This document shows, one piece after another, positions 1 to 3,000 of a stretch of 64,000 nucleotides of DNA. Position 1 is the stretch's first letter. Each line of letters starts with the position of its first letter. Position numbers: made by a program. The stretch is taken from assembly GCF_013315695.1 (NCBI RefSeq), contig NZ_CP054353.1, one strand, 5' to 3'. The stretch comes from Escherichia coli. Its GTDB lineage: Bacteria > Pseudomonadota > Gammaproteobacteria > Enterobacterales > Enterobacteriaceae.

Positions 1-3000
1 TATTACAACTCCCCTTCACTGTTCAAAAACCGTGAACGCGTCCCCGCAAAAGGTTATATCAGCGATCAGTTAACCGATGAGGCAATTGGCGTTGTTGATC
101 GTGCTAAAACACTTGACCAGCCTTTTATGCTTTACCTGGCTTATAATGCTCCGCACCTGCCAAATGATAATCCTGCACCGGAGCAATATCAGAAGCAATT
201 TAATACCGGTAGTCAAACAGCAGATAACTACTACGCTTCCGTTTATTCTGTTGATCAGGGTGTAAAACGCATTCTCGAACAACTGAAGAAAAACGGACAG
301 TATGACAATACTATTATTCTCTTTACCTCCGATAATGGTGCGGTTATCGATGGTCCTCTGCCGCTGAACGGGGCGCAAAAAGGCTATAAGAGTCAGACCT
401 ATCCTGGCGGTACTCACACCCCAATGTTTATGTGGTGGAAAGGAAAACTTCAACCCGGTAATTATGACAAGCTGATTTCCGCAATGGATTTCTACCCGAC
501 AGCTCTTGATGCAGCCGATATCAGCATTCCAAAAGACCTTAAGCTGGATGGCGTTTCCTTGCTGCCGTGGTTGCAAGATAAGAAACAAGGCGAGCCACAT
601 AAAAATCTGACCTGGATAACCTCTTATTCTCACTGGTTTGACGAGGAAAATATTCCCTTCTGGGATAATTACCACAAATTTGTCCGCCATCAGTCAGACG
701 ATTACCCGCATAACCCCAACACCGAGGATTTAAGCCAATTCTCTTATACGGTGAGAAATAACGATTATTCGCTAGTCTATACAGTAGAAAACAATCAGTT
801 AGGTCTATACAAACTGACGGATCTACAGCAAAAAGATAACCTTGCCGCCGCCAATCCGCAGGTCGTTAAAGAGATGCAAGGCGTGGTAAGAGAGTTTATC
901 GACAGCAGCCAACCACCACTTAGCGAGGTAAATCAGGAGAAGTTTAACAATATCAAGAAAGCACTAAGCGAAGCGAAATAACTAAACCTTCATGCGGCGG
1001 ATTTTTCCGCCGCCTTATTGAGCGAGATAGCGATGCACGTTACAGCCAAGCCCTCCAGTTTTCAATGTAATCTCAAATGTGATTACTGTTTTTACCTTGA
1101 AAAAGAGTCGCAGTTTACTCATGAAAAATGGATGGATGACAGCACTCTGAAAGAGTTCATCAAACAATATATCGCAGCGTCTGGCAATCAGGTCTATTTT
1201 ACCTGGCAAGGCGGTGAACCCACTCTGGCTGGCCTGGATTTTTTCCGTAAAGTTATTCACTATCAACAACGCTATGCAGGCCAAAAACGTATTTTTAATG
1301 CATTACAAACGAATGGCATTTTATTGAATAATGAATGGTGTGCCTTTCTCAAAGAACATGAGTTTCTGGTTGGTATCTCGATCGATGGACCCCAGGAGCT
1401 ACATGACCGTTACAGACGCAGTAATTCAGGTAACGGTACTTTTGCAAAAGTGATAGCAGCCATCGAGCGTCTGAAATCATATCAAGTAGAGTTTAATACG
1501 TTAACCGTCATTAATAACGTTAATGTCCATTACCCTCTTGAGGTTTATCATTTTTTAAAATCTATCGGCAGTAAACATATGCAATTTATCGAATTGCTAG
1601 AAACCGGGACGCCGAATATTGATTTCAGTGGTCATAGTGAGAACACATTCCGTATCATTGATTTTTCTGTGCCTCCCACGGCTTATGGCAAGTTTATGTC
1701 AACCATTTTTATGCAATGGGTTAAAAACGATGTGGGTGAAATTTTCATCCGTCAGTTTGAAAGCTTTGTCAGCCGTTTTTTGGGGAATGGGCATACCAGT
1801 TGTATTTTCCAGGAATCCTGCAAGGATAATCTGGTTGTTGAAAGTAATGGAGATATTTACGAATGCGATCATTTTGTCTATCCACAGTACAAAATTGGAA
1901 ACATTAATAAATCTGAACTCAAAACGATGAACAGTGTTCAACTGACAGCGCAAAAAAAACGGATTTCAGCGAAATGTCAGCAATGTGCATATAAACCTAT
2001 CTGCAATGGTGGTTGCCCTAAGCATCGTATTACTAAAGTAAACAATGAGACTGTTTCCTATTTTTGCGAAGGTTATAAAATCCTTTTTTCAACCATGGTA
2101 CCTTATATGAACGCCATGGTGGAGTTAGCTAAGAACAGAGTACCGCTTTACCACATTATGGATGTTGCAAAACAAATGGAGAATAATTATTAACGCTCCC
2201 CCTTAGCTCCATTCTTAGCCTCCTTCTTATGACCTTAACAAGGCACCCGACATAAATTCCTGTCGGGTGTTTCGTCTTCATCATCTTCCTTTGCGAAAAT
2301 CCTGGCTTACGAGGTATGCGTCAGGGCATTAGCAATACCCTTGATTATCAATAGCATAACCATAACCACTGAAAATGAATATTTCTTTATATTTCATATT
2401 GTTAAATGATACTTAAATAAATTTCATCAGTATATCATTGCCATAGATAATCATTGGATGGCACAATCAATTTTCGCTAATGATAACCATTCCCATTACG
2501 TTTTGTATGTTGATAGCAAAGTATCTCTGTCTGCTGAAGCCCTTTTGGCTGCGTAAGAATAATAAAACTTCAGTGTTGTTAATCATTATTATCCTCGCCA
2601 TGATCCTTGGCGTGGTTAAAATTCAGGTCTGGTTAAACGACTGGAATAATGATTTTTTCAATGCGCTAAGCCAGAAAGAAACTGATAAGCTTTGGCAGCT
2701 TGTCCTTTGGTTCCCTGCCCTGCTGGGGATCTTTGTATTAATATCCGTAAACAAAACATGGTTAATTAAACTACTGACTATTCGCTGGCGCGAATGGTTA
2801 ACAGATTACTACCTTAATCGCTGGTTTGCAGATAAAAACTACTACTTCACGCAGATCTACGGCGAGCATAAAAATACAGATAACCCTGACCAACGTATCG
2901 CTGAAGACATTCTCTTACTGATCAGCAAAACGCTCAGTCTTTCATTTGGCTTCATCCAGTCACTTAGCATGCTGATCACCTTTACCGTTATTCTTTGGCA

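What the first reader, a model, noticed from the sequence alone, without database searches (positions are those of the whole stretch)
2340..2500. Fur-box-like repeats directly upstream of and overlapping the yddA start
Several GATAAT/ATTATC-type hexamer arrays occur in the 140 bp before yddA (gattatcaatagcataacc, gataatcattgg) and one overlaps the start codon (aatgataaccatt). This fits iron-dependent repression of the yddA-yddB-pqqL operon.
Basis: partly seen in the sequence, partly recalled or inferred. Interest (0 to 1): 0.3.

Follow-up and report, generated by a model that had tools for sequence, protein, structure and literature searches.

The report
Known Fur operator at yddA start

Summary
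The window is an E. coli chromosome, and the region is the ydeM/yneP-yddA intergenic region.

I built a Fur weight matrix from 19 MG1655 Fur-regulated promoters, leaving yddA out. Only the motif over the annotated start codon is strong:
- **Start-codon motif:** 2476-2494 scores 20.7 bits, the best hit in all 64 kb (shuffle P about 2e-4). An overlapping site shifted by 6 bp, 2482-2500, scores 13.0 bits.
- **Distal string:** 11.0 bits, borderline (P about 0.05), and it decays in other Escherichia.
- **Middle string:** fails the seeded matrix (-2.2 bits). Its GATAAT varies between clades, and it lies in the spacer of the predicted promoter.

Published data agree:
- A 2-site, 25-bp Fur cluster at yddA was reported in 2007.
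- A Fur box overlapping the start codon was noted in 2013.
- The CFT073 Fur ChIP-seq summit falls on the start codon.
- An MG1655 ChIP-exo peak maps to about 2470-2500.
- The operon is derepressed 8- to 50-fold in fur mutants.
- PqqL protein rises with an iron chelator.

The only new side point is that yddA probably starts at ATG 2507.

The parts
2476..2494 (+). Primary Fur box GCTAATGATAACCATTCCC
   Evidence: 15/19 matches to the consensus. It scores 20.7 bits with a matrix trained without yddA, which is the top hit of the window and would rank 2nd among leave-one-out scores of 19 known sites. An unseeded EM matrix gives 20.1 bits, again the top hit. The site is kept at 19.1-19.5 bits in other Escherichia clades.
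2482..2500 (-). Overlapping second Fur box, shifted by 6 bp (CGTAATGGGAATGGTTATC on the minus strand). Together with the primary box it forms a 25-bp operator at 2476-2500.
   Evidence: 13.0 bits. This matches the '2 sites, 25 bp, 19.6 bits, +8' yddA cluster in Chen 2007 Table 4. MG1655 ChIP-exo peak 1577347-1577374 maps to window 2470-2497, +/-3 bp.
2438..2467 (+). Predicted sigma-70 promoter of yddA: -35 TTGCCA (2438-2443), 18-bp spacer, extended -10 TGgCACAAT (2459-2467). The inferred transcription start is about 2473-2476.
   Evidence: This is the only plus-strand promoter-like hit upstream of yddA. Both elements are invariant across six Escherichia sequences. It is a prediction only; I found no transcription-start data.
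2343..2361 (-). Probably not functional.
   Evidence: 11.0 bits with shuffle P about 0.045-0.06. It falls to 8.1 bits in one Escherichia clade and is lost in another. No ChIP-exo peak lies there in MG1655.
2446..2457 (+). It is a half-site-like core inside the spacer of the predicted promoter, not a Fur box by the weight matrix.
   Evidence: -2.2 bits in the best register with the seeded matrix and 7.4 bits with the unseeded matrix. GATAAT becomes GACAAT or GTCAAT in other Escherichia clades. It lies outside the ChIP-exo peak.
2577..2614 (.). Second Fur-associated ChIP-exo region, inside yddA. It contains the weak motif GTTAATCATTATTATCCTC (2578-2596).
   Evidence: MG1655 peak 1577233-1577267 maps here. 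The motif has 5 mismatches to the consensus and scores 7.0 bits. In strains with GTA instead of GTG the neighbouring register scores 11.8 bits.
2480..4165 (+). yddA as annotated (561 aa): an ABC transporter with an SbmA/BacA-like membrane domain. The probable true start is ATG 2507.
   Evidence: ORF and annotation. Pfam ABC_membrane_2, SbmA_BacA and ABC_tran. Codons 2-9 show 0 synonymous and 4 nonsynonymous variants, against 40 and 3 in codons 11-107, Fisher p = 2e-4.
4203..9415 (+). yddB (TonB-dependent receptor, 4203-6575) and pqqL (M16 peptidase, 6620-9415), the co-transcribed genes under this operator.
   Evidence: Annotation and Pfam Plug and Peptidase_M16. Co-transcription was shown by RT-PCR in PMC3855560.

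Best explanation
Bases 2476-2500 are the Fur operator of the yddA-yddB-pqqL operon. The operator consists of two overlapping 19-bp Fur boxes offset by 6 bp, which is the usual E. coli arrangement for two Fur dimers on opposite faces of the DNA.

When iron is sufficient, Fe(II)-Fur occupies this 25-bp stretch. The stretch lies immediately downstream of the predicted extended -10 promoter (TTGCCA-18-TGgCACAAT, 2438-2467). That places it at roughly +1 to +25 of the transcript, so RNA polymerase is excluded or cannot clear the promoter. When iron is scarce, or in a fur mutant, the operon is derepressed.

Shown: the sequence match, its conservation, in vivo Fur occupancy, and Fur- and iron-dependent expression. 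Inferred: the promoter position, and therefore occlusion rather than a roadblock.
For: **Sequence**
- The site is the best match to the Fur consensus in 64 kb.
- It scores 20.7 bits with a matrix built from 19 other MG1655 Fur promoters. The leave-one-out median of known sites is 16.3 bits.
- Shuffle P = 2e-4.
- An unseeded EM motif gives the same ranking.
- The three best independent hits in the window fall at yddA, yncE/pqqU and adhP. All three are published Fur ChIP targets, which validates the matrix.

**Conservation**
- The box is kept in other Escherichia clades (19.1-19.5 bits), even where the 'codons' change.
- The 75-bp promoter/operator block is at least 94.7% identical in all 4,609 complete E. 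coli genomes that carry it.
- A 52%-identical yddA-yddB locus in another enterobacterium has three Fur boxes (18.9, 17.9 and 14.1 bits) 34-64 bp upstream of its yddA.
- A Neisseria TonB-receptor/yddA-like pair has a 16.8-bit box upstream.

**Experiments in the literature**
- A yddA Fur cluster of 2 sites over 25 bp, centred at +8 (PMC2189734).
- A putative Fur box over the start codon, with up-regulation in delta-fur (PMC3855560).
- A ChIP-seq summit on the start codon and roughly 50-fold derepression (PMC7157518).
- Fur bound upstream of the operon in MG1655 (PMC4676285).
- A ChIP-exo peak that maps onto the operator (PMC10164565).
- PqqL protein induced by bipyridyl (PMC6793856).
Against: - I found no footprint or gel shift on this DNA. 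The experimental-data column for yddA in Chen 2007 Table 4 is empty.
- In CFT073, dipyridyl or added iron alone did not change yddA/yddB/pqqL transcripts in LB, although delta-fur did. Iron is therefore not the only input.
- Chen 2007 found no strong sigma-70 promoter overlapping the cluster and suggested repression might be weak.
- The promoter used here is a consensus match (9/12 plus TG). The promoter scan found 3 promoter-like hits in the region against 2.1 expected by chance, and I found no mapped transcription start.
- Mapping the ChIP-exo peaks needed a 3-bp-uncertain conversion between genome versions. It also needed a correction for a one-row offset between coordinates and gene labels in the published table.
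Confidence: 0.9

Rival explanations
1. One reading: an extended array of three separate Fur sites (2343-2361, 2446-2457, 2476-2500) spanning 160 bp cooperates in repression, for example by Fur polymerisation along the DNA.
For: The distal string scores 11.0 bits, within the range of the weakest known sites (leave-one-out scores for fhuE 4.5, tonB 6.6, nrdH 8.5). The middle string has a perfect GATAATCATT core and scores 7.4 bits with the unseeded matrix. Hexamers are mildly enriched (P = 0.027). Multiple ChIP-exo peaks 100-200 bp apart are common at Fur targets.
Against: The shuffle P of the distal site is only about 0.05, and it decays or disappears in other Escherichia. The middle string scores -2.2 bits with the seeded matrix, and its GAT varies between clades. 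The two MG1655 ChIP-exo peaks map to 2470-2500 and to about 2577-2614 inside the gene, not to either upstream string.
Confidence: 0.1
2. Fur acts as a roadblock or translational-region block. The annotated ATG 2480 is the true start, the promoter lies further upstream, and Fur bound over the start codon stops elongating RNA polymerase instead of competing with initiation.
For: The annotation places ATG at 2480, inside the box. Chen 2007 described the cluster as lying between the promoter and the translational start and not overlapping a strong promoter. A second Fur-associated region lies about 100 bp into the gene.
Against: The only conserved plus-strand promoter-like element ends 9 bp before the box. 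Codons 2-9 do not evolve like coding sequence. The 52%-identical homologue starts at the position aligned to residue 9, with an in-frame stop just upstream. In that homologue the Fur boxes overlap a TTGATA-17-TATCAT promoter-like element, which I identified by eye in the sequence.
Confidence: 0.15
3. The matches are chance products of an AT-rich intergenic region and have no regulatory role.
For: The region is AT-rich, and weak matches (7-11 bits) occur about once per 4 kb across the window. This explanation probably does hold for the distal and middle strings.
Against: For 2476-2500, shuffle P = 2e-4. It is the top hit of 64 kb by two matrices, it is conserved, and Fur occupies it in vivo in two strains.
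Confidence: 0.02

Closest known systems
The yddA Fur binding-site cluster itself (Chen et al. 2007, NAR 35:6762, Table 4; Subashchandrabose et al. 2013; Fur ChIP in Beauchene 2015, Banerjee 2020, Gao 2023)
   Same: This is the same locus and the same 25-bp, two-site cluster centred a few bases into the annotated ORF. The sequence published in 2013 (GGGAATGGTTATCATTAG) is the reverse complement of window 2477-2494.
   Different: Nothing differs in the operator. The window strain differs from MG1655 only at two bases just downstream (codons 8 and 9).
Canonical E. coli Fur operators with overlapping 6-bp-shifted boxes (fhuF, fepB-entC, sodA, ryhB, cirA, fhuA)
   Same: A 19-bp box matching GATAATGATAATCATTATC at a comparable score, with an overlapping 6-bp-shifted partner, close to a sigma-70 promoter. 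It controls a TonB-dependent uptake system.
   Different: Most classical operators cover the -35/-10 hexamers. This one lies just downstream of the predicted -10 and over the annotated start codon. Its 3' third (CATTCCC) departs from the consensus ATTATC.
The yncE/pqqU (yncD) Fur box in the same window (57508-57526)
   Same: The two share a 20/21-nt core, TAATGAT[A/T]ACCATTCCCATT. Both are ChIP-verified Fur targets that control TonB-dependent receptors.
   Different: The flanks are unrelated, so this is not a duplication. The yncE/pqqU box lies in a divergent intergenic region well upstream of both start codons.

Membership tests
E. coli Fur operator (Fur box) | A 19-bp sequence matching the Fur consensus or weight matrix at the level of established sites | tested here: met
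   2476-2494 has 15/19 matches and scores 20.7 bits. The leave-one-out median of 19 known sites is 16.3 bits. It is the top hit of the window, and the unseeded matrix gives 20.1 bits.
E. coli Fur operator (Fur box) | A match stronger than chance in the local sequence composition | tested here: met
   P = 2e-4 in 20,000 dinucleotide shuffles for the main site. The distal string does not pass (P about 0.05), and the middle string scores -2.2 bits.
E. coli Fur operator (Fur box) | Overlapping sites at 6-bp spacing (hexamer array allowing two or more dimers) | tested here: met
   The second site, 2482-2500 on the opposite strand, scores 13.0 bits. Chen 2007 lists 2 sites over 25 bp.
E. coli Fur operator (Fur box) | A position overlapping or abutting the promoter of the regulated gene | tested here: inconclusive
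   The predicted extended -10 promoter ends at 2467, 9 bp before the box, and is invariant in Escherichia. I found no experimental transcription start.
E. coli Fur operator (Fur box) | In vivo occupancy by Fur | tested here: met
   Tested by mapping published coordinates onto the sequence. The CFT073 ChIP-seq summit 1765013 falls on the start codon at 1765014-1765012. The MG1655 ChIP-exo peak 1577347-1577374 maps to window about 2470-2500.
E. coli Fur operator (Fur box) | Fur- and iron-dependent expression of the downstream genes | tested here: met
   From the literature only. The genes rise 42- to 56-fold in CFT073 delta-fur. In the Gao 2023 fur comparison, log2 changes are 3.1, 2.9 and 2.3 in MG1655, and the genes are regulated in 8 of 9 strains. 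PqqL protein rises with bipyridyl. One dissenting result: no change with dipyridyl in CFT073 in LB.
E. coli Fur operator (Fur box) | Direct in vitro binding (footprint or gel shift) to this DNA | not testable with these tools
   No footprint or gel-shift flag is given for yddA in Chen 2007 Table 4, and I found none elsewhere.
E. coli Fur operator (Fur box) | Conservation of the site in orthologous loci | tested here: met
   Other Escherichia clades keep it at 19.1-19.5 bits. The block is at least 94.7% identical in 4,609 E. coli genomes. Distant yddA loci carry their own strong Fur boxes upstream.

The most novel reading that the evidence does not exclude
The annotated yddA start codon (ATG 2480) is wrong, and translation begins at ATG 2507 (residue M10). 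The Fur operator would then not overlap the coding sequence at all. It would occupy about +1 to +25 of a short untranslated leader just downstream of an extended -10 promoter. A second, weaker Fur-bound region about 70-105 bp into the real gene (2577-2614) might cooperate with it.
Probability: 0.55. Interest if true: 0.15.

Novelty: already known. Interest (0 to 1): 0.08.

Why it matters
This operator ties a virulence-associated operon to the iron regulon. The operon encodes a TonB-dependent receptor, a periplasmic M16 protease and an ABC importer. It is thought to be a Fus-like protein-import system, and it contributes to fitness of uropathogenic E. coli in systemic infection.

That link is already established in the literature, so the finding adds no new biology. 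This check contributes three things:
- It gives an independent validation of a Fur matrix on the window. The top three hits are the three known Fur targets yddA, yncE/pqqU and adhP.
- It gives a modest annotation hint that yddA starts 27 nt further downstream.

Tried and rejected
- **Distal string 2343-2361 as a second operator.** I rejected it as unsupported. It scores 11.0 bits with shuffle P about 0.05, is not conserved in other Escherichia, and has no ChIP-exo peak.
- **Distal string as an operator for the divergent small gene yneP.** A minus-strand promoter-like hit (TTAACA-16-AATATT, 2405-2378) would place the string at about +10 to +28 of such a transcript. Nothing else supports this, so I did not pursue it.
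- **Middle string 2446-2457 as a Fur box.** I rejected it because it scores -2.2 bits and is variable.
- **Seo 2014 and McHugh 2003.** I tried to read both for primary data, but neither is held.
- **Mapped yddA transcription start.** My search found none.
- **Published ArcA link.** I looked for one to explain the conserved AT-rich block upstream of the -35, and found none.
- **Beauchene 2015 supplements.** These are not held.
- **Genome-collection scan for yddA relatives.** It returned only 8 loci, so the phylogenetic footprint is thin outside Escherichia.

Full report
**What the window is.** Bases 1900-2800 are 100% identical to the chromosome of E. coli strain MSB1_4I and 95-99% identical to nearly all other complete E. 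coli genomes. The annotation there gives this layout:

| Gene | Window position | Strand |
|---|---|---|
| ydeM | 1018-2193 | + |
| yneP-like small ORF | 2156-2281 | - |
| yddA | 2480-4165 | + |
| yddB | 4203-6575 | + |
| pqqL | ends at 9415 | + |

Pfam confirms the three products. YddA is an ABC transporter with an SbmA/BacA-like membrane domain, YddB is a TonB-dependent receptor, and PqqL is an M16 peptidase.

**Checking the observation.** The interval 2282-2500 holds three GATAAT/ATTATC/GATAAC hexamers against 0.68 expected from dinucleotide shuffles, P = 0.027. The hexamer enrichment is therefore mild.

**A Fur matrix built here.** I fetched 19 well-established Fur-regulated promoter regions from MG1655: fepA-fes, fepD-entS, fepB-entC, fhuA, fhuE, fhuF, cirA, fiu, tonB, exbB, fecI, feoA, sufA, sodA, ryhB, mntH, nrdH, yncE-pqqU and bfd. 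From these I derived a 19-bp matrix by iterative refinement from the consensus. It converged on GAAAATGATAATCATTATC with 18.6 bits of information. Leave-one-out scores of the known sites have a median of 16.3 bits and range from 4.5 to 21.0. yddA was never in the training set, and yncE was removed before the window was scanned.

**Scores of the candidate sites**:

| Site | Strand | Seeded matrix (bits) | Unseeded matrix (bits) |
|---|---|---|---|
| 2476-2494 GCTAATGATAACCATTCCC | + | 20.7 (best of 64 kb) | 20.1 (register 2479-2497, best of 64 kb) |
| 2482-2500 (overlapping, shifted 6 bp) | - | 13.0 | not recorded |
| 2343-2361 (distal string) | - | 11.0 | 9.5 (register 2340-2358) |
| 2440-2458 (best register of the middle string) | + | -2.2 | 7.4 (register 2437-2455) |

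- In 20,000 dinucleotide shuffles of 2282-2520, a score of at least 20.7 occurred with frequency 2e-4, and a score of at least 11.0 with frequency about 0.05-0.06.
- An unseeded EM search on the same promoters recovered the same motif and the same ranking.
- The best independent hits in the window are yddA, then 57508-57526 in the pqqU-yncE intergenic region, then 26896-26914, which lies 41-59 bp upstream of adhP. All three are published Fur ChIP targets, so the matrix is specific on this sequence.

**Conservation.**
- Across six Escherichia sequences, including two non-coli clades, the block from about 2396 to beyond the start codon is highly conserved. The main box keeps 19.1-19.5 bits although three of its bases change (ACCA to ATAG).
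- The distal site drops to 8.1 bits in one clade and disappears in another.
- The GATAAT of the middle string becomes GACAAT or GTCAAT.
- The 75-bp block 2436-2510 is found in 4,609 of 5,426 complete E. coli genomes, always at 94.7% identity or more.
- In an Enterobacteriaceae metagenome-assembled genome, YddA is 52% identical and is followed by a YddB-like receptor. The three best Fur hits of that 7.7-kb locus (18.9, 17.9 and 14.1 bits) cluster 34-64 bp upstream of the gene.
- In Neisseria wadsworthii, a 16.8-bit box precedes a TonB-dependent receptor gene that is followed by a yddA-like gene.

**What is already published.**
- Chen et al. 2007 list a yddA Fur cluster with a strongest site of 19.6 bits and 2 sites over 25 bp, centred at +8 and overlapping the translational start. 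They cite the McHugh 2003 array study.
- Subashchandrabose et al. [quoted passage not shown] They show co-transcription of yddA, yddB and pqqL, more than 30-fold induction in urine, and up-regulation in delta-fur. They saw no response to dipyridyl alone in LB.
- Huja et al. 2014 detected the box with a PRODORIC matrix.
- Beauchene et al. 2015 report Fur bound upstream of yddAB-pqqL in MG1655, and higher RNA levels with RyhB.
- Banerjee et al. 2020 give a CFT073 ChIP-seq summit at 1765013 (height 657) and 42- to 56-fold derepression. In NC_004431.1 the yddA start codon is at 1765014-1765012, so the summit is on the box.
- Gao et al. 2023 place yddA in the Fur-2 iModulon and find it regulated in 8 of 9 strains. 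Their MG1655 ChIP-exo table has two iron-replete peaks, 1577347-1577374 and 1577233-1577267. From about peak P37 onward, the gene labels in that table lag the coordinates by one row, so these peaks sit on the rows labelled blank and 'uxaB'. With the roughly 1,976-1,978-bp offset between genome versions, the peaks map to window 2470-2497 and 2577-2611, +/-3 bp. The first is the operator. The second lies inside yddA over a weak motif (7.0 bits).
- Grinter et al. 2019 show that PqqL protein rises with bipyridyl.

**Mechanism.** The only plus-strand promoter-like element upstream of yddA is TTGCCA (2438-2443), an 18-bp spacer, and TGgCACAAT (2459-2467). Both hexamers are invariant in Escherichia. 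That predicts a transcription start near 2473-2476, which places the operator at about +1 to +25, inside the footprint of RNA polymerase. Repression by promoter occlusion is therefore the most likely mechanism, but I could find no mapped transcription start. A roadblock mechanism remains possible.

**Side finding: the start codon.**
- Among ten Escherichia alleles, annotated codons 2-9 show 0 synonymous and 4 nonsynonymous variants. Codons 11-107 show 40 synonymous and 3 nonsynonymous variants. Fisher p = 2e-4.
- The 52%-identical homologue begins at the position aligned to residue 9 and has an in-frame stop directly upstream.
- This suggests that translation starts at ATG 2507, and that the 'start-codon overlap' is an artefact of longest-ORF annotation.
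- Constraint from the Fur box itself may partly explain the lack of synonymous change. Neither ATG has a visible Shine-Dalgarno sequence.

**Verdict.** Novelty: already known. Interest: low.

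Noticed in passing
window 2480-2509: The annotated yddA start (ATG 2480) is probably 27 nt too far upstream. 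Codons 2-9 carry 0 synonymous and 4 nonsynonymous variants, against 40 and 3 downstream (Fisher p = 2e-4). A 52%-identical homologue starts at the position aligned to residue 9. ATG 2507 is the likely start.
   Followed up: partly
window 2577-2614: A published MG1655 Fur ChIP-exo peak (1577233-1577267) maps inside yddA, about 100 bp past the annotated start. It lies over a weak Fur-like motif, GTTAATCATTATTATCCTC (7 bits; 11.8 bits in a neighbouring register in strains with GTA).
   Followed up: partly
window 57508-57526: This is the Fur box of the divergent pqqU(yncD)-yncE intergenic region, the second-best hit in the window. It shares a 20/21-nt core (TAATGAT[A/T]ACCATTCCCATT) with the yddA operator, although the flanks are unrelated.
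   Followed up: partly
window 26896-26914: The third-best Fur matrix hit (14.7 bits, GCAAATGAGATTTATTCGC on the minus strand) lies 41-59 bp upstream of adhP, in the adhP-maeA intergenic region. adhP is a published Fur ChIP target.
   Followed up: partly
window 2156-2281 (minus strand): A small ORF is annotated here as a hypothetical protein. In other strains it is YneP, a 40-aa protein verified by epitope tagging. It is divergent from yddA and overlaps the 3' end of ydeM on the opposite strand.
   Followed up: partly
window 2244-2279: A hairpin, CACCCGACA-N8-TGTCGGGTG followed by TTTCGTCTTC, sits just after the ydeM stop and inside the yneP ORF (antisense). One clade has a compensatory C-G to T-A change in the stem. 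It is probably the ydeM terminator, though the terminator scan did not call it.
   Followed up: no
window 2396-2437: An AT-rich block upstream of the predicted -35 is almost invariant across Escherichia clades. It includes TGTTAAATGATACTTAAATAAA. It could be an UP element or the site of another regulator. That would fit the report that urine, but not dipyridyl alone, induces the operon in CFT073.
   Followed up: no
E. coli genomes: About 15% of complete E. coli genomes (817 of 5,426) lack the yddA promoter/operator block. In at least one of them (H14), ydeM is annotated directly next to the M16 peptidase gene, which implies a yddA-yddB deletion.
   Followed up: no
L026 2931-2963; L027 327-345: Distant yddA-type loci carry their own strong Fur boxes. 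In an Enterobacteriaceae metagenome-assembled genome, the boxes overlap a TTGATA-17-TATCAT promoter-like element 34-64 bp upstream of yddA. In Neisseria wadsworthii, a box precedes a TonB-dependent receptor gene that is followed by a yddA-like gene.
   Followed up: partly
PMC10164565, Dataset 2, MG1655 sheet: From about peak P37 onward, the gene and TU labels in this published table lag the peak coordinates by one row. For example, the tonB-position peak is labelled acnA, and the yddA peaks sit on the rows labelled blank and uxaB. Anyone using the table by gene name would be misled.
   Followed up: partly
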